Shown: one piece after another, positions 10,183-58,895 of the stretch
Layout: the number at the start of each line of letters is the position of its first letter
How positions within the stretch are numbered: position 1 is the stretch's first letter
Assembly (NCBI GenBank): GCA_016932045.1
Contig: JAFGDO010000002.1
Coordinates: 2,553-66,552 of the forward strand
Reading direction: 5' to 3'
Length of the DNA stretch: 64,000 bases
DNA from: Candidatus Dojkabacteria bacterium
GTDB taxonomy: Bacteria; Patescibacteriota; Dojkabacteria; JAHIVN01
The notes under the pieces: model-generated
Told to the model about the DNA's origin: nothing
Databases searched by the model: none
The model's input: only the letters and a program-made list of their open reading frames with translations
Program-made: the position numbers and the translations under genes

Positions 10183-10272
10183 TTATTTTCCATTTATTTA
10201 AAATCCGATTTAGAAACGCAGGTAGAGTTTAATTGTGGAACTAGTATATTTATTGAAAATATCTTTTTTGAT

Positions 10273-11295: not shown

Positions 11296-12014
11296 AATAT
11301 ATCCTTGGAATACAAACTGCTGAGCTGCCTAACGAAGTTGCGCTACTTGAGTTTTCTAAGTCAAAAGTAGAAATCCCCAGAAAGTTTACTAAAAAAATAA
11401 GTACAGGGGGACAGACAATTGAAGAGTTAGGTGATTCAGTGAAAAAAATATTGGCTGAAGCTGGTATTGAACCAGAAGAAGTTGATCTAGTTTGTGTTTG
11501 TCTTGGTCCCGGTTCTTATACCGGTACAAGAGGAGGAGTAGCTTTTGCTAAAGGATACTGTCAATTTAGGGGAATTCCTCTTATTGGTGTATCTGCTTTT
11601 GAAGTTCTTGAGGAAAGTATAAAAACTATAAAAGGCATCGGAAATGTAGTTTTCATGTTGGATGCGAAAAATGAAAGAGTATTTGCTTTAAAATCAGACA
11701 GAAAATCTTTTGGGAAGATTCGGATGGACCAAGTTCGCGTGGATTCAATTGAGAATATATTGACCCCAACTAAGGAAAGAACACTTTTCCTAGGATCGGG
11801 AGCGGCTGCATATCGAGGTATTATTAATGAAGAAATTAAAAATAGAGCTGCTTTTGTTCCTGCAAAGTCGAATATCCTGAGAGCTGTAAACGTGGCAGCC
11901 AGAGGCTTAAAAAGCTATCAAAAGAATTCTTCTATATATTCAAAGGATTACTTGTTAAATATCAAACCTCTTTATATACTACCTCCCAACATTACAAAAG
12001 CGAAGAGTAAGTAG
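11292..12014 (+). CDS. tsaB: tRNA threonylcarbamoyladenosine biosynthesis protein TsaB (YeaZ)
   Basis: MKYILGIQTA...VCVCLGPGSYTGTRGGVAFAKGY...IPLIGVSAFEVL. Its ATGA start overlaps the upstream stop. Confidence 0.75.
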   Translation: MKYILGIQTAELPNEVALLEFSKSKVEIPRKFTKKISTGGQTIEELGDSVKKILAEAGIEPEEVDLVCVCLGPGSYTGTRGGVAFAKGYCQFRGIPLIGVSAFEVLEESIKTIKGIGNVVFMLDAKNERVFALKSDRKSFGKIRMDQVRVDSIENILTPTKERTLFLGSGAAAYRGIINEEIKNRAAFVPAKSNILRAVNVAARGLKSYQKNSSIYSKDYLLNIKPLYILPPNITKAKSK

Positions 12015-18929: not shown

Positions 18930-21674
18930 ATGAAAAAATCAAGAGTTTGGATTCTGTTGCTTTTTATTTTCCTAGTAGGTCTCGGCGGAGCCGCTGTATG
19001 GATCGGCTGGCGTCTTCAACAGGAAGAAGAAGTTATTCCACAGGAAAGCGAAGCTGCAGCAGGTGACCATCAATGTATAGGTTACAATAACAATCCAGAT
19101 GATTGGGGGCATGTTGATTTTTGTTTATCTGGTACGAGTACTGCTTGTAATGAAGCACAGGCAGAATACTATGCAGGGAAAGGTTGCAGAGGATGTTGTT
19201 CAAAGATGATCCCTTGTACTAAACAACAAGTTGATTATGACAATGATTACAAAGTAGTCGTATACGGTCCTAATCCTGGTGGAGGAGAGTGGTGTAGGGA
19301 GTATCTACCGGGAGATGATGGGAGTCGGAAGTGTGGACGAGACACGCCTGATCCTGATACTTGGGACTGGACAAATTGTACTGTGTGCGATGATGTCCAA
19401 GCGGAATGGGATTTTGATTCGCAGCCCGGGAAAGTTGTTTTAAGAATTACAAGTGCAGCTATGCACGATATGGACAATATAAATAGCTCACATAATCAAG
19501 ATGATGTGCCAGCGATAATGTCAAAGCAAAGAATGAGAGTCGAAATAAATAGATATGACGCAGGGGGCAATGTCATAGGTTCAGCACAGAATATCTCAGG
19601 ACAATTAGAGTTCTTACCAGATAATTGTTCTTTAACCTATAAACTTGGGAAAAGTAACGCTGGTTGCAACTATGGGAGAGACTGTGCTATTGATCCGAAC
19701 GATCTTTGTTGTGATGGAAATGGCCCGCGATGGGGAACGTGGAATGGGGGCTATAGGTGTAATTTATCAAATACTAGAGAATACACCTTCGATGTTGATC
19801 GCAACGCAGATAGTTATGGATATACTTTCTATGTAGAGGGTTTTAGTCCATTTACCAACTCACAGTGGAAGACGGCTGATACTTGCAAGGGGTTTGTGGA
19901 TGCACCTGAGCAGTTTAATTGCGGAGATCCCTGTACAAATCCTCAGGGATCTTGTGATGACGGGAGTAATTGTATTGATCTTAGAGATATTATTCCAGCA
20001 GGAGAAGAAGCTTGTGATGGATATGTGTGTTGTGTAGGAGATGATTTCATTGATGAATTTGGTAATGTGAATTGTCCTTTCAGCGAACATGTAGCTAGTG
20101 GATGTAGATGTCTTGAAACTATTCAGTGTGACAGTATGTCCTCACCTCAGGCAGTTGGAGATACTATCACGGTGCAGCAGGAGGGTGATACATTCGTGAT
20201 TACAGTACAGGGAACAGATGGTGATGGAACGATCAGACAGATCTCCATATGTTCAGCTGTTGCAAATCAGCCAGATGAGTATTATCGGAGGGGACTAGAG
20301 GTATGGAATTGTGAGGAAACTCAATCTGCTGATAATACTTTTACAATTACTCGAACTTATGCATCATTAGTCGACGGTCAGGGTGATGATGATGTTTTAA
20401 ATCCTGATGGACTGGATATTAGTGCAAACAGCATAGTGTTCGCAGCTAATTTATGGGATGAGCCGGATAGAAGTATATTTTGCTCATCAAATCCAGGCTA
20501 TGGCGATACATCTCATGGTATTTTATATGGGAATTATTGTTCTCAGGATCCTGCCGCTTGTGACCTGTGTAACTTAGGAACAAATAGCTGTAGGATGATT
20601 TTACAACTGGCAGAAGAAGAGTGCGATTGTACTTCGATCCAGAGAAGTCCTAGTGGTGATACGATTGCCCCAGGAAGTAATGTATGGGTTCAAGTTACTG
20701 ATTCTTGTGAGATAGGCTATAGTGAAGTCGAATGGTTTTGGAGCGAAGGAGAAACTGGTACGCCTCAGCAGACGAACTTCAGTGATAGGATACCTGGGCC
20801 AAGTGATGATCCTGAGCTGAACCATAGCGTGATTTTTTCCGTTCCCGTAACAGCAAGCGGGACAATATGCATTTGGGCACGAACTCAAGGTGAGGATGAT
20901 CCTGATTGCCGGGATTGTTTTAATATTGGAGGCGAAGAGGAACCAGCTTACGCAGCAGTAAAGACGAGCGAGATGGTATGTATAAATAATAATAGTGCAG
21001 CAAGGATAACATATAGAATTCATGTAAGGAATATATCAGGAGTAGTAGGTACAATTGATTATGTAGAAGACACATATGATTCAAGGATACAAACAAGCTG
21101 GGTAAGCGGTATAAGCCCGCTTCCATATGAGCACACAGGAAACGTGATAAGGTGGGATAATAATGATACTGGATATGTCCTGCAGCCAAATGATGGTGCA
21201 GCTGGTGGAGCAGATGAGATAGAGTTCAGCTATATAGTGACAGTACCATCAGAATATTTTGGCACGTGGGAGGGAGGAGTATTTGTACCGTATCAGTATA
21301 GGAATCATGCTGTCGTCAAGCCGAGAGACGAGGAACCCATAGAACTGGCAACAGTAGTAAGTATTCAATGTGCCGTCGGTACAGGTATTTTTAGCAGTGC
21401 AGTGAAGGATATGTTAATTGGTCTAATACTTATTCTGCTTGGATTGACTATGATAAGGATACATGAAAGTACCTATAAATACCTTATACCAATAGAATAT
21501 GCATATAAAGAGAGTGTTATAGGTCTGAAAAATGGTGTAAATATGGTTAGAACTGAATGCAAAGCTGTACTAGATAAGTGTAAAACGTTTGTGTTTGAGA
21601 GGTTTAAGCTTACAAGCAAAGAAAGATTTGAACGTAAAATTGTAAGAAGAGCAGAAAAGAAAAAAGGGACCTAG
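18930..21674 (+). CDS. Giant Cys-rich surface protein (914 aa) with N-terminal signal-anchor, DUF11-like C-terminal module, C-terminal TM helix and basic cytoplasmic tail
   Basis: N-terminus MKKSRVWILLLFIFLVGLGGAAVWIGWRL. More than 60 Cys in the ectodomain. C-terminal TYRIHVRNISG...DYVEDTYD resembles the DUF11 conserved repeat. Then a TM helix IGLILILLGLTMI and the tail ...SKERFERKIVRRAEKKKGT. Confidence 0.6.
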   Translation: MKKSRVWILLLFIFLVGLGGAAVWIGWRLQQEEEVIPQESEAAAGDHQCIGYNNNPDDWGHVDFCLSGTSTACNEAQAEYYAGKGCRGCCSKMIPCTKQQVDYDNDYKVVVYGPNPGGGEWCREYLPGDDGSRKCGRDTPDPDTWDWTNCTVCDDVQAEWDFDSQPGKVVLRITSAAMHDMDNINSSHNQDDVPAIMSKQRMRVEINRYDAGGNVIGSAQNISGQLEFLPDNCSLTYKLGKSNAGCNYGRDCAIDPNDLCCDGNGPRWGTWNGGYRCNLSNTREYTFDVDRNADSYGYTFYVEGFSPFTNSQWKTADTCKGFVDAPEQFNCGDPCTNPQGSCDDGSNCIDLRDIIPAGEEACDGYVCCVGDDFIDEFGNVNCPFSEHVASGCRCLETIQCDSMSSPQAVGDTITVQQEGDTFVITVQGTDGDGTIRQISICSAVANQPDEYYRRGLEVWNCEETQSADNTFTITRTYASLVDGQGDDDVLNPDGLDISANSIVFAANLWDEPDRSIFCSSNPGYGDTSHGILYGNYCSQDPAACDLCNLGTNSCRMILQLAEEECDCTSIQRSPSGDTIAPGSNVWVQVTDSCEIGYSEVEWFWSEGETGTPQQTNFSDRIPGPSDDPELNHSVIFSVPVTASGTICIWARTQGEDDPDCRDCFNIGGEEEPAYAAVKTSEMVCINNNSAARITYRIHVRNISGVVGTIDYVEDTYDSRIQTSWVSGISPLPYEHTGNVIRWDNNDTGYVLQPNDGAAGGADEIEFSYIVTVPSEYFGTWEGGVFVPYQYRNHAVVKPRDEEPIELATVVSIQCAVGTGIFSSAVKDMLIGLILILLGLTMIRIHESTYKYLIPIEYAYKESVIGLKNGVNMVRTECKAVLDKCKTFVFERFKLTSKERFERKIVRRAEKKKGT

Positions 21675-21775: not shown

Positions 21776-22903
21776 ATGAAGAGATCTAGAATTATCATGC
21801 TGGTTATCCTTTTTATAACCCTTATACTTGGTGGAGTAGCGATATGGCTGGGCTTGAGACTCGGGAAAGAAGAGGAAGTAACTCCAGAGGAAAGTGAGGC
21901 TGCATCAGAAGAGGTAACTAATGCTGATACGCTTAAAACTCAGGCGCAAAGAGAAGAATTTAACAGAAAATGGCAGACGTTTATTGCAGATGAAACTAAA
22001 ACTTGGAGGGACTATGTTGAATATGCAATGGGGGAAGGAGCTAGATACGAATGCACAAGAGTTATAATGAGTAATGTGGGAGCTGAAAGCCTCTATGGCT
22101 GTGATTTAAATGCGCTATTTGTTATTTATGATTTGCCAACCTATATTTCTACTCAGCCGATTGGTCCTCAGGATCCGAATTTAAATGCAGTACTTAATGA
22201 ACTGATAACTGACTCGGGTCTTCTGCAGAAAGCTGCTGAGATGGATATAATTACATTAGATGAGACATTTTTCAATTCCCCATCAAAAGATATGTTTGAA
22301 AGGTTTAGTAAGGTAGAAACTGCAAGGGTAGCCATAGGTGATCAGTTTGTGAAGCGTGTTGATTTTGAGGCGGTTGTAATTTACTTTCACAATGAATATG
22401 ATCCACAAATTCCTCTTGAGCAGGCGAAAGAAGCGGCAAAGACAAAGATGGATATTCTCTACGGGCGACTGGAGACAGGTGAAATCACGATGAGACAGGC
22501 AGGAGAAGAAATCATAAATGATAATATTCAAGGTGATACTACTGGAGTATCTCTGACTCAACTTGATCGATTGTACAAAGAGAATGCTTATATAGAAGTT
22601 ATAGGTCATGAGTTTGGGGAGAGAATTTTTAAAGATGAGGTTTATGATGAGGAGCTGCGAAGTCTTGGCGAAGGTCAGATGAGTACAGTAAGACTCTGCA
22701 AGGATTATAAATTTACCCCGGAGGAGTTATTTGAGGCAAATGGTGAGACTACTGAATTTCCACTAGTTGATAGCTGCTATATAATTTTTAAAGTAAATAA
22801 AATAACTTTTGGGCTGGGAAGAGAGTTTTCAGGAGATACATTGGAGGAGGTAGAAGATAGTATACAAGATAATTACGACCAAGCAGTGGACTATAATCTA
22901 TGA
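21776..22903 (+). CDS. Membrane-anchored/exported protein (375 aa) sharing the N-terminal anchor module of the 914-aa protein
   Basis: N-terminus MKRSRIIMLVILFITLILGGVAIWLGLRLGKEEEVTPEESEAA is paralogous to residues 1-45 of the 18930 gene. The rest is acidic and soluble. Confidence 0.5.
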   Translation: MKRSRIIMLVILFITLILGGVAIWLGLRLGKEEEVTPEESEAASEEVTNADTLKTQAQREEFNRKWQTFIADETKTWRDYVEYAMGEGARYECTRVIMSNVGAESLYGCDLNALFVIYDLPTYISTQPIGPQDPNLNAVLNELITDSGLLQKAAEMDIITLDETFFNSPSKDMFERFSKVETARVAIGDQFVKRVDFEAVVIYFHNEYDPQIPLEQAKEAAKTKMDILYGRLETGEITMRQAGEEIINDNIQGDTTGVSLTQLDRLYKENAYIEVIGHEFGERIFKDEVYDEELRSLGEGQMSTVRLCKDYKFTPEELFEANGETTEFPLVDSCYIIFKVNKITFGLGREFSGDTLEEVEDSIQDNYDQAVDYNL

Positions 22904-25446
22904 ATCATTTAAAAAATAAAACAATTTGTTTCATCTTTTTGTGTTTAGGAATTCTTGTATTCTCGTTTTTTCTTGTTATAAAGCCGAGTCCTGTATCTGC
23001 CGGTTCTGTACTTGATCATGAGTTTTATATAGAGATACCTACAGGTCGAAGAGTACCATTACAAGGAGCTTCGGTACATTCTGTAGGAGTTGATAATTAT
23101 GGTCAATGGGGGAATAAAGACTACATTACACGTTCAAATTATTGCGGTTATGGTAGTGCTGCAGGAGGAGCCCACTGCAGGACAAAAGCATCTTGCGATC
23201 ATTGGGGATATCATGCTCCATTTCTTCCAAAAAGTTACAATAGTGCATCAGACGTCTATACGCCAAGAGCGGATGTATATGGGTGGTGCGGGAATTTAGA
23301 TGCATCACATGCGCATTTCTATAATGGTCAAACGATGACACAGCGATTCCCTTGGTTTCCCTTTGAAAATGGGAATCCAAGAGGTTCGAGTACTTCATAT
23401 TGGACTGCTGAGATAGTTTCGCAGCAGAATAATAAGCTTCAATTATGGGGTAAAGCTCAGCCGGATGACCATGAAGCACGTAAAGCGACTGATGATTGCA
23501 GAAGAACGGACGAACGGGAAACTATATTGCAGGAATGGGGTAGATTAGACGATTTCCCGAACAAAGCTTCTTGGAAGCAGGGAGAGATTGTTTACGATGG
23601 AGTCGGAGGGAATGCTCTTCATGGAACCGTAAGATGGATTCTTCATGAAACACAGACTGTGTCAGACCTCAAGATAAGTGGCAAGGTTTATTGCCAAGAT
23701 GATGGAGATCCTACTCCTTATCCTGTTAATGGTGCAACTGTTTCTATATATAAAGATGGTGTGAAAGAAACTGTAGATGTTGCAACGAATGAAAGTGGAA
23801 ACTTTTCATATGATGCAAGATCATATGAGGGAGGTTTTGCTGTCAGATTTAAGAATTTACCAAGTGGGACTTTAAGAACCGGACTACCATATGATCAGAT
23901 GGTTGGTCCAACAGCTGTAAATTGTGCTAGTGGCGTTGTAACGGGTTGTCAAGAAGGTTCTCCTCCGGGAAGTTTCTGTGGGACGAACAATTTATCTTAT
24001 GAGTATTGCGGTCTTGGTAGTGGCAATCATTCAGGATTTGATTTCAGATATACTAATTGTTCAGCAGGATTGGTTTGTGAAAATTTGGCTTCAGATATTG
24101 ATCTTACCTCTATTAGCGAAGATGACTTAAGGGCGGAAGATATGGAAATTGCTATATCTGCAGAGATGAATGCAAATAATGTATCTGTAAGTTCAACTGG
24201 TGCCTATACTTATTACACAAACATCCCGGGTGCCTATTTCGCTGGTGATCCTGCTAATACTGGAAGCTATACAGATGGTCCAAATACGACAATTACAATT
24301 CCGGCAGGTACAAGTATTAGCGATGAAGACTACTTTGTCAGTGTAGTTATCCAGGGTAGCATAGGTTCAACTAATTATGCTTCTGGCTGCTATTCGACTG
24401 GAAATTGTGTACAAGGAGGTGAGAATTGTATTTTAGCATTTCAGCCTACAGCAGGAACGTGTGATTGCAGGAGTATGTCAGTTAGTCCTGATCCAACTAC
24501 AGTAAATCCTGTTGCTGGTTCAAATATTGTCTACCAGATAAATATTGCCGATACGAATGGAGTCCCGTGTAATGTAGAGGACAGTGAAATAAATTGGGAA
24601 GTATATGAGGGTAGTCCGACACTTGAAGTTATCGAGAGAGGTCCAACAACTGTTCCCGGGAATCCCGGACCGACTCACTATATTATATACAGAATTCCCG
24701 ATGGAGTTCCCGAAGGAACCCAGTATTGTGTCCGTGCCGAAGTGGATAATTTTGGAGTAAGAGAAGCGTGTAATGCTTGTTTTACGACAGGTACTGACGA
24801 GGTGCCTCTATTTGTTGCAGTAAAGACAAGTGAAGTTGTTTGTATTAATAACAATACAGCAGCACGAATTACTTATCGTATAAGAGTAAGAAATATATCG
24901 GGAATGGAGGGGATAATTGATTATGTTGAGGACACCTATGATTCAAGGATACAAACTAGTTGGGTGAGCAGTATTAGTCCGACTCCCTATGATCATACGG
25001 GGAATGTAATTAGGTGGGATAATAATGATACCGGATACACATTACAACCAAATGACGGAACTACGGGTGGAGCGGATGAGATGGAGTTCAGTTATATTGT
25101 GACAGTACCATCAGAATATTTTGGTACGTGGGAAGGTGGGGTATTTGTACCGTATCAATATAGGAATCATGCTATCGTCAAGCCAAGAGACCAAGGTCAG
25201 ATTGAACTCAGTACTGTTGTACAAATTCAATGTGCGGGTGTTACTACCGGTATTTTTGACAAAGCATTGACAAGTGTTTTGATAGGACTATTACTAGTTA
25301 TGTTTGGAGGAGTATTGCTAAAAGCTGATAGTTATGTTTATAGGTTCGTGCCTCAATTCAATTCTTATATTAAAAAAGTTATTCCTAGCAGGAAAGAAAG
25401 ATTTGAGAAAAAAGCGATAAAGAGAGTAGATGAGGGGGAGAAGTAG
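22900..25446 (+). CDS. Giant Cys-rich surface protein paralog (848 aa), signal peptide plus DUF11-like C-terminal module plus TM plus basic tail
   Basis: The C-terminal roughly 150 aa are about 85% identical at protein level to the 914-aa protein (VKTSEVVCINNNTAARITYRIRVRNISG...FGTWEGGVFVPYQYRNHAIVKPRD). TM helix LIGLLLVMFGGVLL and tail ...PSRKERFEKKAIKRVDEGEK. Confidence 0.6.
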   Translation: MNHLKNKTICFIFLCLGILVFSFFLVIKPSPVSAGSVLDHEFYIEIPTGRRVPLQGASVHSVGVDNYGQWGNKDYITRSNYCGYGSAAGGAHCRTKASCDHWGYHAPFLPKSYNSASDVYTPRADVYGWCGNLDASHAHFYNGQTMTQRFPWFPFENGNPRGSSTSYWTAEIVSQQNNKLQLWGKAQPDDHEARKATDDCRRTDERETILQEWGRLDDFPNKASWKQGEIVYDGVGGNALHGTVRWILHETQTVSDLKISGKVYCQDDGDPTPYPVNGATVSIYKDGVKETVDVATNESGNFSYDARSYEGGFAVRFKNLPSGTLRTGLPYDQMVGPTAVNCASGVVTGCQEGSPPGSFCGTNNLSYEYCGLGSGNHSGFDFRYTNCSAGLVCENLASDIDLTSISEDDLRAEDMEIAISAEMNANNVSVSSTGAYTYYTNIPGAYFAGDPANTGSYTDGPNTTITIPAGTSISDEDYFVSVVIQGSIGSTNYASGCYSTGNCVQGGENCILAFQPTAGTCDCRSMSVSPDPTTVNPVAGSNIVYQINIADTNGVPCNVEDSEINWEVYEGSPTLEVIERGPTTVPGNPGPTHYIIYRIPDGVPEGTQYCVRAEVDNFGVREACNACFTTGTDEVPLFVAVKTSEVVCINNNTAARITYRIRVRNISGMEGIIDYVEDTYDSRIQTSWVSSISPTPYDHTGNVIRWDNNDTGYTLQPNDGTTGGADEMEFSYIVTVPSEYFGTWEGGVFVPYQYRNHAIVKPRDQGQIELSTVVQIQCAGVTTGIFDKALTSVLIGLLLVMFGGVLLKADSYVYRFVPQFNSYIKKVIPSRKERFEKKAIKRVDEGEK

Positions 25447-49987: not shown

Positions 49988-50524
49988 TTACAACTTATAC
50001 TCTAGGTGAATATCATTGGGTTCGAGCTTATATAGTTCCTTATTAATATCTTTCGCAAGTGTGCAGCCCATGTGTTTGTAGAAGTCTACTGTATTCATAT
50101 TTTCTGTAGCCGATACATATAGTTTTTTTGCGCCAAGTCGTCTTGCTTCTTTTGCAGCTATTCTAAAAAGTTTTCCGCCAAGCCCCTTTTTTCTGTATGT
50201 ACGGCCTATGTGGAGGAATTTCAGTTGAAGTGTGTCTTCATTCTTTCCTATGAACTTTTGATCAAGTATGACTACAGCTATCATTTTTTGTCCGACAAAT
50301 CCTCCTAAAAAGTAACCTCCTCTATCAAAGCAGTTAGTAAGTATTGGTTGGTATTTTTCGACTTCGCCTGGTGGCCAGCCTTTTGCTTCAAAATTAACTT
50401 TCTTGAGTTTAATACCTTCATCAATGTTAACATAGACAGAGTCAACAGATTCACTGCGATCTATATCAGTCCAGATTTGTGGAAGATCGGCTTTTTTCAA
50501 TTTTCGAAACATTATATTATCCAT
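49988..50524 (-). CDS. GNAT-family N-acetyltransferase (start trimmed so as not to overlap tRNA-His)
   Basis: Motif A RKKGLGGKLFRIAAKEARRLG. The track ORF extends to 50671 across the tRNA-His gene, so the start is taken at MDNIMFRKL (50524). Confidence 0.7.
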   Translation of the reverse strand: MDNIMFRKLKKADLPQIWTDIDRSESVDSVYVNIDEGIKLKKVNFEAKGWPPGEVEKYQPILTNCFDRGGYFLGGFVGQKMIAVVILDQKFIGKNEDTLQLKFLHIGRTYRKKGLGGKLFRIAAKEARRLGAKKLYVSATENMNTVDFYKHMGCTLAKDINKELYKLEPNDIHLEYKL

Positions 50525-50592
50525 GATCGGGGTTATTATACATTGTTTTTTGATACAGATCGATTGTAAAGAGGATTGTGGAAGGGGATAGA

Positions 50593-50669
50593 TGGGGTGG
50601 TCGGTGGGATTTGAACCCACGACAGCTCGCTCCACAGGCGAGTGCTCTACCAACTGAGCTACGACCACC
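50593..50669 (-). tRNA. tRNA-His (anticodon GUG) with encoded G-1 and CCA
   Basis: G-1 plus acceptor GUGGUCG/CGACCAC. D arm GCUC-AGUUGGU-AGAGC. Anticodon stem CUCGC/GCGAG with loop CUGUGGA. T arm GUGGG-UUCAAAU-CCCAC. Discriminator C, then CCA. Confidence 0.85.
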
Positions 50670-50967
50670 ATACTTCACAAAATTTCACTTTGTTCAATTT
50701 GTTTTGTATGGTAAACCACAAAATCACTGAACAATTAAAATTTTGATTGAAGTATGAGTGTCTTACGAAGTTTTAACAGAGTAAGACACCATACAGTACA
50801 ATATTATACCTGATTATTAACTCTCCTGGAAAGTATATTTGAAGAGCATTGGTTATAATTTGGAAATTATATCCCGTAGAAGATTCGCTGCGCTTATCTC
50901 CACGGGATTATATATCTCTACGATTTTTCTGCTCCCACTAAGCGGGATTGAAAAATCTAGAGCTATA

Positions 50968-51486: not shown

Positions 51487-51629
51487 AAGCAATCGGCATA
51501 CACTATCTAACTCTATGATTATAATAAAAATATATGATAAACTCAATTATTATAGAGATTACTGGCGCTTAAATTGTATAATTGGATGAAAAAGATTAAA
51601 ATTAGTATATTCTTTTTTCAGAAAAGCTT

Positions 51630-52793
51630 ATGAATCAATTACTTCCAGCGACAAAGGAATATTTCAAAAAGGTCTATGAAAGTATTATAGGGTCGGTGAA
51701 GAAAAATAGAGATGTTCATCTGATTGGTCTGCGTGAGTCTGGAAAGACCTACGTGATGAAGATGCTTGCTCTTTCAAAGCAAGGGGTATCCTTCAGGAAA
51801 TTATATCCAAGGGTAGAGGTCTTCTTTATTGATCAAGATCTTGTTGGGGAGGAGGAATTTGTATGGCTGCAGCTTGCTAAGCAGATGGACATCGAGTCTT
51901 CAGAAAATATTTCCGTACTTTTCCACAAGATTCTATCTTATGTCGATGATAAGACAAGGAATAAGGGATACACTTTAGTTCTAATTCTAAATCAGCTACT
52001 CACGTGGCGATCATTATCCTCAGATCTGATAGATAAGCTTCTTAAGATAAAAACTATTTTTTCAGAGAAGGTTAAATTTGTGATTATCTCAAATGCCTTC
52101 GAAGATTATTCGTCAAGTCAGGATTATCTAGACACATTATCAATTCTCAATTTTAAAAGGATTTGGTTTCCGATTCTTTCCTTAGAAGATACCAAAAAGC
52201 AAATAGCTGAAAATAGAGTAAAAGCGGGAAAAAGTATTAAAGAAATAGAGAGTGAAAGCTATTTTGAGATAATTTTTAGACTAAGCGGGGGGATTCCCGG
52301 GATAACGAAGAAGTTGATGTCGGTCCCATTAAAAGGCATTGAAGGTGGACCTGAGGATCTGCTTAAGAATAAATCTATTATTCAGCAGCTGTTATTTACG
52401 TTAAAAGGTATAGATTTTAAGTATCTTGATTTACTCAAAAAAGGTAAATACAGCGAAGAATTATATAAATCAGGATTGACCGATAGGAAAGGGAGAATCA
52501 AGAGCTCGCTTATAATGAATTTTCTAGAAAACTTCGACTATAAAACGATGCTTAGGCAAAAAGCTATTCCGGAGCAATTATTATCGGTTCAGGAGAAAAA
52601 GGTATATGATCTTTTGAAGAAAAATAAAGGCGAAACTGTTGCAAGAGAGGAAATTGCTCAAGTTATGTGGGGAGAAGAATATACTCAGAAGTACTCAGAT
52701 TGGGCTATTGATTCATTAATAAAAAGAATTAGACAGAAGATTCCTACAGTCAAGATAGTAACCCAAAAAGGTAAGGGTTATGTTTTTAAATAG
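51630..52793 (+). CDS. P-loop NTPase fused to C-terminal OmpR/PhoB-type winged-helix DNA-binding domain
   Basis: Walker A HLIGLRESGKTYVMKML and a candidate Walker B VFFIDQD. C-terminal ...AREEIAQVMWGEEYTQKYSDWAIDSLIKRIRQKIP...KGKGYVFK follows the trans_reg_C pattern. GC about 34%. Confidence 0.55.
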   Translation: MNQLLPATKEYFKKVYESIIGSVKKNRDVHLIGLRESGKTYVMKMLALSKQGVSFRKLYPRVEVFFIDQDLVGEEEFVWLQLAKQMDIESSENISVLFHKILSYVDDKTRNKGYTLVLILNQLLTWRSLSSDLIDKLLKIKTIFSEKVKFVIISNAFEDYSSSQDYLDTLSILNFKRIWFPILSLEDTKKQIAENRVKAGKSIKEIESESYFEIIFRLSGGIPGITKKLMSVPLKGIEGGPEDLLKNKSIIQQLLFTLKGIDFKYLDLLKKGKYSEELYKSGLTDRKGRIKSSLIMNFLENFDYKTMLRQKAIPEQLLSVQEKKVYDLLKKNKGETVAREEIAQVMWGEEYTQKYSDWAIDSLIKRIRQKIPTVKIVTQKGKGYVFK

Positions 52794-52805: not shown

Positions 52806-54884
52806 ATGACCGAAGAAAAGCCACAAAGAGATCCTGAAACCGACTATTTCCTTAAATCCTACGCAAAGCGTCTGCAAGTAAGCGCAGAAAGACAAGAGAC
52901 TGTTGTCTTTCTGCCAGAATTAGCTTTGCCCGAAGTTCGAGAAGGGCTCGATGCCCTCTTTGGTAGTGAAGCAGTATACGAAATTTCCGAAACTACAGGT
53001 GAAACTTCTGAATATGACTCATCAACTACATACGTTGGAGTAGGGGATACAGTTGATTCGACTGAGCGAATTGAGCAAGCTCTAGGAGATTCTGCTGTAG
53101 GGCATTTGCCTGATGAAGAGAGAAGGGCTATTGCCGAGCAATCTCGAAGGCTACAACTCTTTTTCCATGATTGTTTAAGTACTGATCCTCAAGCAATTCG
53201 AGCCGTTCTTAAAGAGAATCCCAATATGGATGTTGAGGCAAGAAAGTATTACTACAGAATGTATCTACTTCGGGTTGTTATTGATCACATAATTGGGGAG
53301 TATAGAGCCAGGGGGTGGGATACAGATGAAGCCTACTTACCACTAGGATTTGTATACGGCAGTGCAGCAGAAAAGACACCTGAGGGAACTGAGATAATTG
53401 AACTCAAGGCAGATAATGTGCCTTGTCCAGCTAGACGTCTTGTAAGACCAACAAGTGATATTGACGTCTGTGTACCAATGAGTATTGGCCGGGTTAAAGA
53501 TTCTTTAGAGCTTAGAAGAAAACTAGAAAAAGCCAGGGATGTCTTGGATGGTACAACTTTATATGACGAAGTAATGACTGGGGTAACTGAATCATTTGAA
53601 AGACATGGGATGCAAGCGGCTCATCGCTTTGCAAATGCACGAGAATTTGCAAGAGGAACACTAAGTATGCGAGAGATTTCAGATCATTCTCTACTGGGGC
53701 TTGTGATCTATATGGCAAGAAGGGTGATCGGTTATAAATTCGTACACGAAGTATCTTATAAAAATGTAAGACATCCAATTATTGATATTACGACCCCGGA
53801 ACATAATCTTACTAAAAGTACATTGTACAATCCACATGAGTTTGCTCGAGCGGTTTCAACAGACGCCTTTTCTTTTACAGACGGTGAGAGCAGGGTAGGG
53901 TTTCTCCTGGGAGTTCGTTTTATCGCAGGTAGACCAATTGCTGTGGGGGACATTGTTGCACTACAGCATAGAAGCGCCGAGTCCCAAAAAGCGGGGCCTT
54001 TAAAACCAAGGGAAATTTTCTTTGAAAGGCTTTATGCTTCTTACTCGGATATCAAAGCTGTTGCTTACTCGTTCATGCGTAGAATACTAGCTATGGACGA
54101 TGAAGTCATCGGAACAAATCTTAGAGATTTAATCCACCCGCGACTCTTATTCCTCATGGGCAGTCAGGTTCTAAAGCTTGATGTTTGTACAGAAAGGTTT
54201 GCTTTTTCAAGACTTGCTGCTTATGCTGAACCCTATAATAAGGAGCACATTGATTATTTTTTACATCACTTCCTTAGGGTTTTAAGTAGTATTGCATTAA
54301 GGATTATTTCTCAAGATAAAGCTGCAAGAGCTATCAAATTAGAGGAGATGGATTTAAGTGAAATTTATAATCTCTTATCTCTTGGAACTCGAAGGGCTCT
54401 TGCTATGTATTTACAGATGCTAGAGGTTATGGGAATTCATCACATGTGGAACGTTTTGGCAAGGAACCTAATTCTTGCTGGAAGAGTTGAGGTGTGTCAG
54501 GGTGACCTATCGACCAGACAGCACTATGAAATTCTTGCCTACCCAGAGACTCTGGGTGAGGTTGGTATTGCGTCTGAACTGCTTGAGGGCTCCGATCAGT
54601 TATTTCCAAGTGTTTTTACAGCTACACGTGATACACAGAGCGATTTGCCTACAATTAACATCTTGCAGTTACTAAGCAGGCCGAAGATAGATGAGATAGA
54701 AGCTCAAGTAGAAGAGCATTATGCAGAGCAAAAGCAAGATACACGTTTCCGTCAGAGGTTTGCTTCGGTTTTACTAAGTATTTTGCATGAGAATCCCTAT
54801 TTGTGGAATGGTGTGGCTGATCTGCTTCAGCTACCAGGACAACTCAGACAGATGCTAAAACACACACTAAGAATCTCCCGTTAA
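52806..54884 (+). CDS. Orphan 692-aa protein, compositionally foreign (GC about 44%), with a possible polymerase-beta-type nucleotidyltransferase motif
   Basis: Starts 12 nt after the ATPase-wHTH gene. Contains LGFVYGSAAEK...(about 30 aa)...PTSDIDVCVP (a GS...DhDh-like arrangement with an unusually long spacer), then a Leu-rich helical C-terminal half. No other motif recognised. Confidence 0.4.
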   Translation: MTEEKPQRDPETDYFLKSYAKRLQVSAERQETVVFLPELALPEVREGLDALFGSEAVYEISETTGETSEYDSSTTYVGVGDTVDSTERIEQALGDSAVGHLPDEERRAIAEQSRRLQLFFHDCLSTDPQAIRAVLKENPNMDVEARKYYYRMYLLRVVIDHIIGEYRARGWDTDEAYLPLGFVYGSAAEKTPEGTEIIELKADNVPCPARRLVRPTSDIDVCVPMSIGRVKDSLELRRKLEKARDVLDGTTLYDEVMTGVTESFERHGMQAAHRFANAREFARGTLSMREISDHSLLGLVIYMARRVIGYKFVHEVSYKNVRHPIIDITTPEHNLTKSTLYNPHEFARAVSTDAFSFTDGESRVGFLLGVRFIAGRPIAVGDIVALQHRSAESQKAGPLKPREIFFERLYASYSDIKAVAYSFMRRILAMDDEVIGTNLRDLIHPRLLFLMGSQVLKLDVCTERFAFSRLAAYAEPYNKEHIDYFLHHFLRVLSSIALRIISQDKAARAIKLEEMDLSEIYNLLSLGTRRALAMYLQMLEVMGIHHMWNVLARNLILAGRVEVCQGDLSTRQHYEILAYPETLGEVGIASELLEGSDQLFPSVFTATRDTQSDLPTINILQLLSRPKIDEIEAQVEEHYAEQKQDTRFRQRFASVLLSILHENPYLWNGVADLLQLPGQLRQMLKHTLRISR

Positions 54885-56123: not shown

Positions 56124-56182
56124 ATAGTTTAACATAGACTAAAACTAGTGCAGGACATATAACCCCTGCACTAGAATAGAGT

Positions 56183-57523
56183 CTATCTAACCTGCTTGCT
56201 GACTAAACTTGGCCAGCTATAGTCCAGAAACGGCTTATTCTTGCCTTGGTCTAGAATCCTTTCTACTGCATTCATGAATTCCTGCATATTTCCCTCTGCT
56301 TGTAGTTCTTTCAGCCCAATTACAAAAGAGAATGGGATAAGATCTTCTTTTGCTTGTTTTACTCTCTTCCCAACACTTAAATCACGATCATCAATATCTA
56401 GCCGAACAGCTTTCTGTTTTAAATTCTTTTGTATTGCAATGCAGTGTCTCAGGTACTTCCTTCCAAGCGGTATTAATCTGATTTGTATGGGATATAACCA
56501 CAAAGGGAAGCACTCTTCAAAGTTATCAAAGAGCATGTACAAGAATCGATCTATCCCGCCTGGTACAGCAGCATGGATTATAACCGGATGATGAACCTTA
56601 TTTTGTTTGTCAATGTACTCAATACCAAGTCTATGGGCGTTCCCTACATCTATTTGAATGCATCCTATTTCTCTTGACTGTCCAAGTCTATCCATGATCT
56701 TGTAATCAACATTGATTATCCAATACCGGTCTTTTTCATCTTTGTTAATCTCAACAAGAATATCTCTTTTCCCATCTTTTGCCATTTTAACGATAGAATT
56801 CTCATACTTTTCAAAGTCTGATTCTGATCCTATCTCAGCTATAACTTCGTATTTTCTATTTACCTCTTTTGCAGCTTGCAGAATCTGTCTTTCAATTCTT
56901 GGATACCATTCAAATGCTTCATTCACACTCTTAAAATAAGGGTGAAGATCAGGCATAAAGAATCTCCTTAGGCGGTAAAAGAGCATACATTCTCCACTTT
57001 GTTCATGTCTGTAGCAATCCGATATAGAAAAATGAGCAATTGGCAAGTCTTTGTAGCTAAGTTTGTATTTGCCTGCCAGGTTGAATTGAGGGTAACTTGC
57101 ATCATAACTCATGACCACTTCTTTCTTTCCAGACTTAAATCTGAACAACCTATCACCATAGAGTTTTGCATATGCCTCTACAACCGGATAAGACATATCA
57201 AAGACATTTGACCCTCTTACCTCATAGATTGGGAAGCCTATTTCAACAACGAGCTGTCTTGCATATTCCTTCAGCAACCTCATAACGAGCCATGCTTTGT
57301 AATCATACTGCATAAAGCCTATATCTGCATTCGGTTCCCAATTAAATCCGAGCTTATCTGCATGTTTCAAGTATTCTGATTTCTGTCTGGAACCGATACT
57401 CATCCCAAAGGCCTCCTTCTCAACAAATTTTCGGAAGTTCTTTGAGGGTTTTTGATTCTTCAAGAATTCTTTTGGATCAAAAATTTTCCCTCTTCTATTT
57501 ATAACCAAGTAGTTGTTTTTCAT
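56183..57523 (-). CDS. Class IIa aminoacyl-tRNA synthetase, threonyl-tRNA-synthetase-like catalytic core plus anticodon-binding domain, lacking the N-terminal editing/TGS domains
   Basis: Motif 2 SDCYRHEQSGECMLFYRLRRFFMPDLHPYF aligns with ThrRS ([27 protein letters not shown]), including the Zn-ligand Cys and His. Motif 3 HHPVIIHAAVPGGIDRFLYML. C-terminal RLDIDDRDLSVGKRVKQAKEDLIPFSFVIG is an HGPT-type anticodon-binding domain. Confidence 0.6.
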   Translation of the reverse strand: MKNNYLVINRRGKIFDPKEFLKNQKPSKNFRKFVEKEAFGMSIGSRQKSEYLKHADKLGFNWEPNADIGFMQYDYKAWLVMRLLKEYARQLVVEIGFPIYEVRGSNVFDMSYPVVEAYAKLYGDRLFRFKSGKKEVVMSYDASYPQFNLAGKYKLSYKDLPIAHFSISDCYRHEQSGECMLFYRLRRFFMPDLHPYFKSVNEAFEWYPRIERQILQAAKEVNRKYEVIAEIGSESDFEKYENSIVKMAKDGKRDILVEINKDEKDRYWIINVDYKIMDRLGQSREIGCIQIDVGNAHRLGIEYIDKQNKVHHPVIIHAAVPGGIDRFLYMLFDNFEECFPLWLYPIQIRLIPLGRKYLRHCIAIQKNLKQKAVRLDIDDRDLSVGKRVKQAKEDLIPFSFVIGLKELQAEGNMQEFMNAVERILDQGKNKPFLDYSWPSLVSKQVR

Positions 57524-57607
57524 CTCAGTAGTGTAATAATTTAGGTAACAAAGTTATTACCTTCTCTTTACTGGCTTAAAAAGGGAATGTTTTACCGAAG
57601 ATAAGTA

Positions 57608-57632
57608 TAAAAAAAATCCCCGCCTTGGGGAT
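57608..57632 (-). promoter_or_regulatory. Intrinsic terminator/attenuator hairpin inside the 5' leader of the ThrRS-like gene
   Basis: Minus-sense AUCCCC-AAGGC-GGGGAU followed by UUUUUUUU, about 85 nt upstream of the start codon. A second hairpin GGUAA...UUACC overlaps the putative RBS region. Confidence 0.5.
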
Positions 57633-57794
57633 TATAATTTACAATCTAGCGTGCGTATAATGCCCAAAGCTTAAGCCTTGAGCGTTGCCGTTGCTAAATT
57701 GTGGCTACGGAGTATATATTTCATTACAAATGAATTATATCATAATAACCGTTTTGATCAAGGTTAAACCATTGATCAATGTGGATTTTAGAAT

Positions 57795-58895
57795 TTGGAA
57801 GTGGTTTCAAATTTTCAGTATAATAAAACGCATATGGGAAAAAGATTTGCGGGTACAATTTTTGTAGCTATAAACTTCCTTGTAAGTTGCTTTGTATTTT
57901 TAGGCAGTACATTTTTATTTGCGAAGAATTCGAATAAAAGCCTCGATTTCATAAATTTATCAACAGAACTTTCTATATCGAATTCTCCACAAGTTAGGAT
58001 AAAGAGTCTTCAGGACAATATTTCGCCTATTGTAAGATTAAAATCCGATACTTTTCGAACATCTGGATCTGATATAAATATTGACGTTTCAGTGAACGAA
58101 CCGCTTATCACTGGAGACTTTACCTACTTTAGTTTACAAGCAGATGGAGAGGCAGATCGAGGGTTATATAAAGTAACTTTAAATGAATTAAAAGAAGGTG
58201 AAAATGAAGTTGAGCTAGCCTTTTACGACCGGTTTGGAAATAGTACCAAGAAAAATATTACTGTTGAAAAAAGACAGATTTTAGGTGAAAGTACTATCAG
58301 AGGTGAGGTCATCTGGCTCGATGGAGATGACATCCTTGCTGTTATTGACAAGGAATTTGCCTTGCCCTCTGAATATTATCCGAAAGATCTTGTGTATATA
58401 GCAGAATATAGTATTCCGGCTGTTTATGGCAAATTTATGTTAAGAGAAGTAATTATTCAGGATTTATCTCAACTATTTGCAGATGCTAATGCAGCGCATG
58501 TAAACTTACTTGTGATGTCTGCATACAGATCTTATGATAAACAAAGATCTGTATACAACACTTGGCTTTCGGCAGCTGGTATTACGGAAGCAAATCGCGT
58601 AGCTGCTCTTCCGGGGCACAGTGAGCACCAGCTTGGGACTGCAATTGATTTTACAACTCCGGAGATCGGAAATTCTAATTATTTTGATAAAACAGCAGCT
58701 GGAAAATGGCTTGCAGAAAATGCTTATAAATATGGCTTTGTGTTGTCTTATCCTCAAGGTTCTGAAGAAATTACAGGATATAGGTATGAACCCTGGCATT
58801 ACAGGTATGTTGGAAAGGATGCAGCAATGGATATTCATTTGAGTGGGAAGTTGCCTATTGTCTACTTAAAGGAGATAAATAAAGTATACAATTAG
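57795..58895 (+). CDS. VanY-like D-alanyl-D-alanine carboxypeptidase (peptidase M15B) with N-terminal TM and extra domain
   Basis: LPGHSEHQLGTAIDF (SxHxxGxAxD) and EPWHYRYVG motifs. N-terminal hydrophobic helix. Confidence 0.75.
   Translation: MEVVSNFQYNKTHMGKRFAGTIFVAINFLVSCFVFLGSTFLFAKNSNKSLDFINLSTELSISNSPQVRIKSLQDNISPIVRLKSDTFRTSGSDINIDVSVNEPLITGDFTYFSLQADGEADRGLYKVTLNELKEGENEVELAFYDRFGNSTKKNITVEKRQILGESTIRGEVIWLDGDDILAVIDKEFALPSEYYPKDLVYIAEYSIPAVYGKFMLREVIIQDLSQLFADANAAHVNLLVMSAYRSYDKQRSVYNTWLSAAGITEANRVAALPGHSEHQLGTAIDFTTPEIGNSNYFDKTAAGKWLAENAYKYGFVLSYPQGSEEITGYRYEPWHYRYVGKDAAMDIHLSGKLPIVYLKEINKVYN

What the first reader, a model, noticed from the sequence alone, without database searches (positions are those of the whole stretch)
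56183..57632. Editing-domain-less ThrRS-like synthetase preceded by a leader-embedded intrinsic terminator (candidate attenuation control)
The 446-aa protein aligns with the ThrRS catalytic core (including Zn-ligand Cys and His positions in CYRHEQSG...DLHPYF...HHPVIIHAAV) and an HGPT anticodon-binding domain. It lacks the about 240-aa N-terminal TGS/editing region of bacterial ThrRS, an arrangement known from some archaea and organelles. In its 5' leader (minus sense), about 85 nt upstream of the ATG, lies a textbook terminator AUCCCC-AAGGC-GGGGAU-U8. A second hairpin overlaps the purine-rich probable RBS. A terminator inside an aaRS leader implies conditional read-through (T-box-like, tRNA-mimic operator or protein/ribosome-mediated attenuation). 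I could not find a canonical T-box sequence (AANNNGGGUGGNACCGCG) by eye, so the mechanism may be different.
Basis: partly seen in the sequence, partly recalled or inferred. Interest (0 to 1): 0.55.

Follow-up and report, generated by a model that had tools for sequence, protein, structure and literature searches.

The report
Threonine leader-peptide attenuator controlling short ThrRS
The terminator in front of this editing-domain-less threonyl-tRNA synthetase gene belongs to a classical ribosome-sensing attenuator: a tiny, probably leaderless upstream ORF rich in threonine codons, found at all 45 candidate-phyla-radiation loci examined and absent from Rfam.

Summary
There is a 446-aa ORF at 56183-57523 (-). 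It has a ThrRS catalytic core, an HGTP anticodon-binding domain and all three Zn ligands, but no editing domain. A strong intrinsic terminator (stem 57633-57615, U8 to 57609) ends 85 nt before its ATG. The source is a Candidatus Dojkabacteria (Patescibacteria/CPR) genome, and hundreds of CPR homologues have the same short ~445-aa form.

An extended -10 promoter (TGaTATAAT, 57742-57734) lies 9 nt before a 17-codon ORF (57724-57671, MKYILRSHNLATATLKA). Its two Thr codons abut region 1 of a four-region 1:2 / 2:3 / 3:4 switch. Masking the RNA as a ribosome stalled at Thr would replaces the terminator with a 14-bp antiterminator.

All 44 related thrS loci (48-69% protein identity) have the same device, with Thr runs such as TTTT or TATAT, a matching geometry and covariation in every helix. 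No T-box or other Rfam family matches.

Verdict: this is ribosome-mediated, threonine-dependent transcription attenuation of thrS. It is a new member of a known kind, with pheST and Streptomyces thrL-thrS as precedents, and I found no description of it for CPR. One Dojkabacteria genome carries a paralogous copy with Ser codons before serS.

The parts
57756..57761 (-). -35-like hexamer TTGATC of the leader promoter
   Evidence: Promoter scan found TTGATC-16 nt-TATAAT, 10 of 12 matches, with TG before the -10.
57734..57742 (-). Extended -10 element TGaTATAAT (TATAAT = 57739-57734)
   Evidence: Across the 45 leaders, 40 have a -10 with at least 5 of 6 matches, 35 have the TGn extension, and 39 have the -10 ending 6-9 nt before the leader ATG. 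The leader ORF therefore starts 0-3 nt from the predicted transcription start. This is inferred, not measured.
57671..57724 (-). Leader ORF: 17 codons plus UAA, MKYILRSHNLATATLKA. The regulatory Thr codons ACG are at 57691-57689 and 57685-57683.
   Evidence: An equivalent ORF with a Thr run is present at all 44 related loci.
57675..57683 (-). Region 1 (GCUCAAGGC), the anti-antiterminator strand. It starts at the last base of the second Thr codon.
   Evidence: It forms a 9-bp helix with 57670-57662 in the minimum-energy fold. The 1:2 helix covaries in the relatives.
57656..57670 (-). Region 2 (GCUUUGGGCAUUAUA). It pairs either with region 1 or with region 3.
   Evidence: It starts immediately after the stop codon, as in the relatives (median 4 nt from the first base of the stop).
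57641..57702 (-). Long hairpin of the unoccupied leader. The outer helix ACAAUUUAGC (57702-57693) pairs with GCUAGAUUGU (57650-57641) and encloses the 1:2 helix; the stop codon lies at its apex.
   Evidence: The leader fold has a z-score of -4.8 against 200 shuffles.
57622..57636 (-). Region 3 (UAUAAUCCCCAAGGC), made of the terminator 5' arm plus its loop. It forms a 14-bp antiterminator with region 2, with one C-C mismatch.
   Evidence: The 2:3 duplex is -16.5 kcal/mol, z -4.2, 0 of 300 shuffles as good. When the Thr codons are masked, 0 of 7 terminator base pairs remain.
57609..57633 (-). Intrinsic terminator (regions 3:4): AAUCCCC-AAGGC-GGGGAUU followed by a U8 tract
   Evidence: The terminator stem covaries across the 45 leaders.
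57544..57600 (-). Conserved post-terminator element. Helix a-a' is CUUC (57600-57597) with GAAG (57564-57561). It also holds the box UUUAAGCCAGUAAAGAGAAGG (57580-57560) and the hairpin GGUAAUAACUUUGUUACC (57561-57544). Its function is unknown.
   Evidence: Helix a-a' is 83% paired with compensatory changes in all 4 pairs. In Saccharimonadia the corresponding box pairs with the SD/start region.
56183..57523 (-). thrS: a 446-aa archaeal-type threonyl-tRNA synthetase without an editing domain
56135..56174 (-). Terminator of thrS itself: an 11-bp stem followed by UUUUAGUCUA, starting 9 nt after the stop codon
   Evidence: The transcription unit is therefore monocistronic.

Best explanation
thrS is controlled by classical ribosome-mediated (leader-peptide) transcription attenuation that senses charged tRNA-Thr. 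Transcription starts at or within about 3 nt of the AUG of a 17-codon leader ORF. If Thr-tRNA(Thr) is plentiful, the ribosome runs to the UAA stop. There it covers the start of region 2, so region 3 pairs with region 4, the terminator forms and RNA polymerase stops 85 nt before thrS. If no ribosome loads at all, regions 1:2 pair and the terminator again forms. If Thr-tRNA(Thr) is scarce, the ribosome stalls at the ACG Thr codons and covers region 1. Region 2 stays free and pairs with region 3, which is the terminator's 5' arm plus loop. The terminator then cannot form and thrS is transcribed. Shown here: all the sequence elements, their mutual exclusivity, their conservation, their covariation and their geometry. 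Inferred: the transcription start, translation of the leader ORF, and the in vivo response to threonine.
For: 1. In the window, a promoter, a 17-codon ORF with two ACG Thr codons and a terminator lie in a row on the thrS strand, with no promoter-like site between terminator and thrS.
2. Constrained folding of the window leader: free RNA gives 1:2 plus terminator (-34.5 kcal/mol). Masking through a Thr codon in the A site plus 10 nt gives the antiterminator (-17.0/-16.4) with 0 of 7 terminator pairs left. Masking to the stop codon restores the terminator.
3. All 44 related thrS loci carry a 13-22-codon ORF with a Thr run 157-258 nt upstream (the offsets used for the 45-leader alignment), followed by a GC hairpin and U tract. 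These loci are labelled Dojkabacteria, Saccharibacteria/Saccharimonadia and Peribacteria, and share 48-69% protein identity.
4. Background for a 12-25-codon ORF with at least 3 Thr in 5 codons is 103 per 614 kb, leaders included. That is about 0.017 per 100 nt.
5. Thr makes up 21.8% of leader residues against 5.4% in the window's ORFs. ACG supplies 62% of leader Thr codons against 11% genome-wide.
6. The antiterminator 2:3 duplex beats shuffles at p<=0.05 in 34 of 45 leaders. With region 2 searched from the last Thr codon, all 45 reach -7.7 kcal/mol or better.
7. Covariation on the 45-leader alignment: 2:3 is 89.6% paired, with 39 compensatory cells in 5 of 7 pairs, 0 of 500 shuffles as high and slid controls at 12-55%. 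1:2 is 79% paired with 31 compensatory cells and 0 of 500 shuffles. The terminator stem also covaries. The wobble base of a Thr codon (ACG/ACA) covaries with regions 2 and 3.
8. Geometry is constant. Region 2 starts a median 23 nt after the first Thr codon, 16 nt after the last, and 4 nt after the first base of the stop codon.
9. A single nhmmer profile recovers every leader, E 6e-33 to 5e-8, so this is one RNA family.
Against: There is no transcript, ribosome or reporter data, and the transcription start is only predicted. The window's own leader has just two Thr codons (A-T-A-T), the weakest run in the set. It fails the 3-in-5 criterion and is convincing mainly through its homologues. In many Saccharibacteria leaders the full terminator is thermodynamically more stable than the antiterminator, and masked minimum-energy folds keep it. 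The switch must therefore be kinetic, as in other attenuators. The leader ORFs were picked with a Thr-based filter, although the background rate makes chance implausible. No Shine-Dalgarno can fit before the leader ORF, so leaderless initiation in CPR has to be assumed.
Confidence: 0.87

Rival explanations
1. The leader is a T-box-like or other tRNA- or metabolite-sensing riboswitch that controls the terminator by direct ligand binding, without translation.
For: The terminator/antiterminator logic is shared with T-boxes, which control thrS in Bacillus (established knowledge). The leader is well structured (z -4.8).
Against: No T-box or any other cis-regulatory Rfam family is found at gathering score in the window or in 20 related loci. 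A scan of 57400-58000 at E<=10 also finds none. Only about 50 nt lie between the predicted start and region 1, too short for Stem I. The feature conserved across 45 leaders is an in-frame run of Thr codons within an ORF of constant length and stop position, which a ligand-binding RNA would not need.
Confidence: 0.03
2. ThrRS autoregulates by binding its own leader, as at the E. coli thrS operator or in protein-mediated attenuation. The Thr codons would be incidental.
For: A conserved, structured post-terminator element exists (helix a-a' covaries). In Saccharimonadia part of it pairs with the SD/start region. That would be a plausible platform for a bound protein and could add a second control layer.
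Against: By inspection, no hairpin loop carries an NGU anticodon-like triplet. This model does not explain the Thr-codon run, the fixed stop-codon position or the 1:2 / 2:3 covariation. The enzyme lacks the N-terminal domain that blocks the ribosome in the E. coli mechanism (established knowledge).
Confidence: 0.05
3. The promoter, mini-ORF and terminator form an independent small gene (a small protein or sRNA), and thrS is transcribed from its own promoter downstream.
For: The unit has its own promoter and terminator. Released attenuator RNAs and leader peptides can act in trans in other bacteria, for example rnTrpL/peTrpL (abstracts listed).
Against: The scan finds no promoter-like site between 57609 and 57523 on the minus strand. 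The unit sits in front of thrS in 45 of 45 loci, even where the neighbouring genes differ. Outside the Thr run the peptide is poorly conserved, while the RNA pairing covaries. A trans role on top of attenuation is not excluded.
Confidence: 0.05

Closest known systems
E. coli pheST attenuator (pheM leader peptide)
   Same: An aminoacyl-tRNA synthetase gene is controlled by a short leader ORF rich in cognate codons, with alternative terminator and antiterminator hairpins.
   Different: It uses Phe rather than Thr codons. The leader ORF is SD-led rather than leaderless. It is proteobacterial. There is no sequence relationship: Rfam Phe_leader scores only 18.1 bits against a gathering score of 55 (E 2.4).
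Streptomyces lividans leaderless thrL upstream of thrS, together with leuS, trpS and alaS leaders (PMC8079986)
   Same: A leaderless mini-ORF with Thr codons lies directly upstream of thrS and was proposed to act as an attenuator.
   Different: That ORF has two Thr codons and no clear intrinsic terminator, comes from one genome, precedes a canonical full-length ThrRS, and has no covariation support. Here there is a textbook terminator, Thr runs of up to five codons and 45-locus covariation, in CPR and with an editing-less archaeal-type ThrRS.
Enterobacterial thr operon leader (thrL, Rfam RF00506)
   Same: Thr codons in a leader peptide gate an intrinsic terminator through 1:2 / 2:3 / 3:4 pairing.
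   Different: It controls biosynthetic genes rather than the synthetase. It also senses Ile. It is not leaderless. The covariance model finds no match.
T-box riboswitches of thrS/thrZ in Bacillus
   Same: The regulatory goal is the same, namely more ThrRS when tRNA-Thr is uncharged, and the output is the same terminator/antiterminator choice.
   Different: The sensor there is direct binding of tRNA to the RNA. Here the sensor is a translating ribosome. The T-box model does not match.
Editing-less ThrRS forms: crenarchaeal ThrRS-cat (with separate ThrRS-ed) and yeast mitochondrial MST1 (PDB 3ugq family)
   Same: A catalytic core plus anticodon-binding domain without a cis editing domain. MST1 is among the PDB matches.
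   Different: The CPR enzyme is of archaeal type (NF003068). No trans-editing partner was found in the 30 window ORFs scanned. The rest of the genome was not available.

Membership tests
Ribosome-mediated (leader-peptide) transcription attenuators | A short ORF in the 5' leader enriched in codons of the cognate amino acid | tested here: met
   The window ORF has 2 Thr codons in 17. All 44 relatives have Thr runs. Thr is 21.8% of leader residues against 5.4% in window ORFs. Background is about 0.017 such ORFs per 100 nt.
Ribosome-mediated (leader-peptide) transcription attenuators | An intrinsic terminator between the leader ORF and the regulated gene, on the same strand | tested here: met
   A 7-bp GC-rich stem plus U8 at 57633-57609. 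It is conserved and covaries in the 45 leaders.
Ribosome-mediated (leader-peptide) transcription attenuators | An antiterminator helix mutually exclusive with the terminator | tested here: met
   In the window the 2:3 duplex has 14 bp, -16.5 kcal/mol and z -4.2. Across leaders it is 89.6% paired with 39 compensatory cells and 0 of 500 shuffles as high.
Ribosome-mediated (leader-peptide) transcription attenuators | An anti-antiterminator (1:2) whose 5' strand is covered by a ribosome stalled at the regulatory codons, with the stop codon placed so that a terminating ribosome masks region 2 | tested here: met
   The 1:2 helix is 79% paired with 31 compensatory cells. Masked folds switch the window structure. 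Region 2 starts a median 16 nt after the last Thr codon and 4 nt after the start of the stop codon.
Ribosome-mediated (leader-peptide) transcription attenuators | Read-through rises in vivo when the cognate aminoacyl-tRNA is limiting | not testable with these tools
   This needs RNA-seq, Term-seq or reporters in a cultivated CPR strain or a heterologous host.
Rfam Thr_leader (RF00506) and other Rfam leader families | A covariance-model match at the gathering score | tested here: not met
   No hit at gathering score. Thr_leader does not appear even at E<=10 in 57400-58000. The only leader-type hit is Phe_leader at 18.1 bits against 55. There are no hits in 20 related loci.
T-box riboswitch (RF00230) | A covariance-model match (Stem I/specifier loop and T-box sequence) | tested here: not met
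   Searches give no hit at the gathering score, and one search gives none at E<=10.
Threonine--tRNA ligase (ThrRS) | A class II core (tRNA-synt_2b) plus HGTP anticodon-binding domain, with the best family match to ThrRS | tested here: met
   Pfam. NF003068 at E 5e-111 and TIGR00418 at E 2e-66. All top PDB matches are ThrRS.
Threonine--tRNA ligase (ThrRS) | The three active-site Zn ligands (E. coli C334/H385/H511 by established knowledge) | tested here: met
   C170, H194 and H317 sit in the aligned motifs and are invariant in 35 homologues.
Threonine--tRNA ligase (ThrRS) | Full-length equivalog score, which requires the N-terminal editing region | tested here: not met
   372 bits against a cut-off of 484 for NF003068. 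Model positions 1-152 are unmatched. No TGS, SAD or tRNA-Thr_ED domain is found.
E. coli-type thrS translational operator | Anticodon-arm-like hairpins with an NGU loop next to the SD/AUG | tested here: not met
   By inspection of 57609-57524, the only stable hairpin loop (AACUUU) has no NGU triplet. This was not tested with a model.

The most novel reading that the evidence does not exclude
The thrS leader may be one member of a modular family of homologous, leaderless leader-peptide attenuators that Patescibacteria retarget between aminoacyl-tRNA synthetase genes by swapping the run of regulatory codons. That would be a ribosome-based counterpart of changing a T-box specifier codon. Evidence for: in Dojkabacteria locus L014, serS is preceded by a clear paralogue of that genome's thrS leader. 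The two are 79% identical over 243 columns, with the same terminator, the same region 2:3 complementarity and the same post-terminator box. The TTTTT codons are replaced by SSFSSSSS. Evidence against generality: three related serS loci have only short promoter regions. The thrS-leader profile finds nothing upstream of 47 metagenomic serS loci.
Probability: 0.2. Interest if true: 0.7.

Novelty: new member of a known kind. Interest (0 to 1): 0.55.

Why it matters
I found almost nothing published on gene regulation in the candidate phyla radiation. My searches of the open literature found no description of leader-peptide attenuation or any thrS control in these bacteria. This element is a well-supported cis-regulatory RNA family that is absent from Rfam. 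It is conserved across loci labelled Dojkabacteria, Saccharimonadia and Peribacteria.

Its existence implies three things. These ultrasmall bacteria couple transcription to translation. They initiate on leaderless mRNAs. They also monitor tRNA-Thr charging, which makes sense if, as the CPR abstracts returned describe, they have limited biosynthetic capacity.

The Thr codons also confirm independently that the short, editing-less enzyme is the working ThrRS. The element could serve as a compact native regulatory part for the genetic tools now being built for Saccharibacteria. The Thr-to-Ser paralogue shows how the specificity of an attenuator can be reprogrammed.

Tried and rejected
- **T-box or other known RNA families.** Rfam at gathering score over the whole window and 20 related loci, and at E<=10 over 57400-58000, gave only tRNAs, one tmRNA and sub-threshold noise.
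- **Terminator serving a neighbouring gene.** Rejected: the upstream gene (VanY, plus strand, from 57795 or 57834) is divergent, and the hairpin has no T run on the plus strand.
- **Equilibrium switching.** Minimum-energy folds with the ribosome masked switch the window leader and about a third of the others. Many Saccharibacteria leaders keep the terminator, so I moved to duplex, shuffle and covariation tests that model co-transcriptional competition.
- **Freed terminator 3' arm releasing the SD.** The idea was that it pairs with the post-terminator box. Support is weak, 9 of 44 leaders.
- **Other attenuators in the window.** A scan for -10 box, mini-ORF with a residue run and T tract found only MINSIIIEITGA at 51534. 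It has no real terminator and precedes a Trans_reg_C gene, so it is probably chance.
- **Free-standing editing domain.** None was found among the 30 window ORFs scanned with Pfam. The rest of the genome was not available.
- **Generalising to serS.** One metagenome scan, one protein search and four contig look-ups were mostly negative.
- **P0072 (Gracilibacteria homologue).** Its contig was not on record.
Full report
**1. The observation**

The ORF at 56183-57523 on the minus strand is real: 446 aa with an ATG start.
- Pfam finds a class II core (tRNA-synt_2b, residues 149-334) and an HGTP anticodon-binding domain (347-411). It finds no TGS, SAD or archaeal editing domain.
- The best NCBIfam model is the archaeal-type threonine--tRNA ligase NF003068, matched over model positions 153-564 of 613 (E 5e-111). 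The score of 372 bits is below the 484-bit cut-off because the N-terminal ~150 positions, the editing module, are missing.
- All top PDB matches are ThrRS.
C170, H194 and H317 are invariant in 35 homologues.
- An identical protein is annotated as a hypothetical protein of a Candidatus Dojkabacteria bacterium. Hundreds of ~445-aa homologues occur in Patescibacteria, so the short form is the norm for this lineage and not a fragment.
- The terminator AAUCCCC-AAGGC-GGGGAUU plus U8 lies at 57633-57609. Its last U is 85 nt from the ATG.

**2.

The gene upstream of thrS is divergent: VanY on the plus strand. The terminator therefore ends nothing that comes from a neighbouring gene.

Directly upstream on the thrS strand is a good promoter: TTGATC, 16 nt, then TGaTATAAT at 57761-57734. 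Nine nucleotides after the -10 box an ATG at 57724 opens a 17-codon ORF, MKYILRSHNLATATLKA. Its stop codon (57673-57671) sits at the apex of a long hairpin.

The two Thr codons (ACG, 57691-57689 and 57685-57683) abut region 1 (GCUCAAGGC). Region 1 pairs with region 2 (GCUUUGGGC...). Region 2 can instead form a 14-bp helix with region 3 (UAUAAUCCCCAAGGC), which is the terminator's 5' arm plus its loop.

Constrained folding of the window leader gives three states:

| State of the RNA | Structure formed | Energy (kcal/mol) |
|---|---|---|
| Free RNA | 1:2 helix plus terminator | -34.5 |
| Masked as by a ribosome with a Thr codon in the A site | Antiterminator; 0 of 7 terminator pairs left | -17.0 / -16.4 (first / last Thr codon) |
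| Masked as by a ribosome at the stop codon | Terminator | -10.1 |

**3. Comparative test**

I collected 44 loci encoding relatives of the enzyme at 48-69% identity, each with its upstream region. Three came from contigs of the closest proteins. Forty-one came from a scan of one genome per species. By record title they are Dojkabacteria, Saccharibacteria/Saccharimonadia, Peribacteria and a few probably mis-binned contigs.

Every locus has the same arrangement:
- a 13-22-codon ORF starting 157-258 nt before thrS (the offsets used for the 45-leader alignment);
- a Thr run near its C-terminus, for example MNFKQSNQNQVTTTTEA, MFLNKINYNLVTTTPKA, MIKSINPNQVTTTTVSS and ..ETATATF;
- a GC hairpin with a U tract further downstream.

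Statistics:
- Background for a 12-25-codon ORF with at least 3 Thr in 5 codons is about 0.017 per 100 nt, with the leaders themselves counted.
- Thr is 21.8% of leader residues against 5.4% in the window's ORFs.
- ACG supplies 62% of leader Thr codons but only 11% of Thr codons in window ORFs.
- A -10 box with at least 5 of 6 matches precedes 40 of 45 leader ORFs. The TGn extension is present in 35. The -10 ends 6-9 nt before the ATG in 39. The leader ORFs should therefore be leaderless or nearly so. This is inferred.

**4. Structure**

| Helix | Cells paired | Compensatory cells | Shuffles as high | Other control |
|---|---|---|---|---|
| Antiterminator 2:3 | 89.6% | 39, in 5 of 7 pairs | 0 of 500 | slid partners 12-55% paired |
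| Anti-antiterminator 1:2 | 79.1% | 31 | 0 of 500 | slid partners 19-52% paired |

- The terminator stem also covaries.
- The terminator loop covaries with region 2, which only an antiterminator explains. Examples are loop ACAG with CUGU, GCGG with CCGU, UCA with GAUC, and AAGGC with GCUUU.
- In Saccharimonadia the Thr codons themselves form region 1. The wobble base of a Thr codon (ACG/ACA) covaries with regions 2 and 3.
- Taken one leader at a time, the 2:3 duplex beats shuffles at p<=0.05 in 34 of 45. With region 2 searched from the last Thr codon, all 45 reach -7.7 kcal/mol or better.
- Geometry is constant. Region 2 begins a median 23 nt after the first Thr codon, 16 nt after the last, and 4 nt after the first base of the stop codon. 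A stalled ribosome therefore leaves region 2 free, and a terminating ribosome covers it.
- One nhmmer profile recovers every leader (E 6e-33 to 5e-8) and nothing else in the window.

**5. Mechanism**

The best explanation is classical ribosome-mediated, threonine-dependent transcription attenuation of a monocistronic thrS. The gene has its own terminator at 56174-56145.

In many Saccharibacteria leaders the complete terminator is more stable than the antiterminator. The choice must therefore be kinetic, made co-transcriptionally, as in other attenuators.

Rivals, and why each is unlikely:
- A T-box or other riboswitch: there is no Rfam match, and it would not explain the conserved ORF frame and stop position.
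- An E. coli-like ThrRS operator: no anticodon-like loop is present.
- An independent small gene: the unit precedes thrS in 45 of 45 loci even where neighbours differ, and there is no downstream promoter.

**6. Comparison with known systems**

The kind is known.
- Leader-peptide attenuation controls E. coli pheST (established knowledge).
- Histidine leader peptides precede hisS paralogues in bacilli (PMC2965389).
- Leaderless mini-ORFs precede leuS, trpS, alaS and thrS in Streptomyces lividans. The thrS one is thrL, MKRVRPFLETTPGFVPAR, with no clear terminator (PMC8079986).

The present family matches no Rfam model. Phe_leader reaches only 18.1 bits over 57607-57725. Four literature searches that included CPR, Patescibacteria or Saccharibacteria terms, and one Patescibacteria review, returned nothing on it. 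I therefore file it as a new member of a known kind.

The enzyme works like the editing-less ThrRS forms (crenarchaeal ThrRS-cat, mitochondrial MST1) but is of archaeal type. Whether a trans-editing factor or a second thrS exists could not be tested. None was found among 30 window ORFs.

**7. Secondary observations**

The 85 nt between terminator and thrS are also conserved and structured.
- Helix a-a' is CUUC 57600-57597 with GAAG 57564-57561 in the window. It covaries as CUUC:GAAG, UCUC:GAGG and UACC:GGUA.
- In Saccharimonadia a box AAAACUCCAUUUAGG pairs with the SD/start region. This is significant in 21 of 44 leaders.
- The role of this element is unexplained.

In locus L014, serS is preceded by a paralogue of that genome's thrS leader in which the Thr run is replaced by SSFSSSSS. 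Other serS loci mostly lack such a leader. The modular-family idea therefore remains a minority reading.

Noticed in passing
L014:5386-5619 (Dojkabacteria JAFGCJ010000002.1), about 1.5 kb downstream of that genome's thrS: A second attenuator lies in front of serS (TIGR00414 match). Its leaderless mini-ORF is MKYKIFLQNLVSSFSSSSSEACWGLC, with 7 Ser in 8 codons, followed by a terminator. It is 79% identical over 243 columns to the same genome's thrS leader, apart from the regulatory codons. This looks like a paralogue with swapped specificity.
   Followed up: partly
L057:1045-1215 and L051, L052, L054 (for example L054:1075-1200): These are Ser-rich mini-ORFs directly after TATAAT boxes upstream of serS in metagenomic contigs: MRYSYTIISSSFSSGL with a GTG start, and MKRYFS(K/N)NSSQSSVL. 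Hairpins overlap their stop codons, but there is no clean U-tract terminator. They may be a different kind of Ser-sensing leader, or chance.
   Followed up: partly
window 57544-57600 (-): This conserved post-terminator element has a covarying helix (CUUC:GAAG) and a hairpin. In Saccharimonadia the homologous box pairs with the thrS SD/start region. Its function is unknown. In the window no ordinary SD lies next to the thrS AUG.
   Followed up: partly
window 51534-51572 (+): The mini-ORF MINSIIIEITGA (four Ile in five codons) lies 8 nt after a TATAAT box. It sits upstream of a 387-aa protein with a Trans_reg_C domain (51630-52793). There is no convincing terminator, so it is probably chance.
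   Followed up: partly
L006 (DATKWK010000035.1), L023, L034: These contigs are labelled Bathyarchaeia archaeon, Chitinophaga sp. and Bdellovibrionales. They nonetheless carry the CPR-type short thrS with its bacterial promoter, Thr leader and intrinsic terminator. The MAG taxonomy is probably wrong (mis-binning).
   Followed up: no
window 18930-21674 (+), 22900-25446 (+), 52806-54884 (+): Three large ORFs (914, 848 and 692 aa) have no Pfam domain at E<=0.001.
   Followed up: no
window 49988-50671 (-) and 50593-50668 (-): The mechanically listed 227-aa GNAT ORF overlaps the tRNA-His gene on the same strand at its 5' end. The true start of the acetyltransferase is probably further downstream.
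   Followed up: no
window 57795 / 57834 (+): The divergent VanY-like gene has an ambiguous start. The longest ORF starts at TTG 57795, while the gene call on an independent assembly (L047) gives 353 aa, equivalent to ATG 57834. The later start leaves about 70 nt between it and the leader promoter's -35 box.
   Followed up: no
window 9712-12014 (+): ORFs with TsaE and TsaD-family domains (t6A tRNA modification, which consumes threonine) flank a 340-aa ORF. No link to the thrS leader was examined.
   Followed up: no
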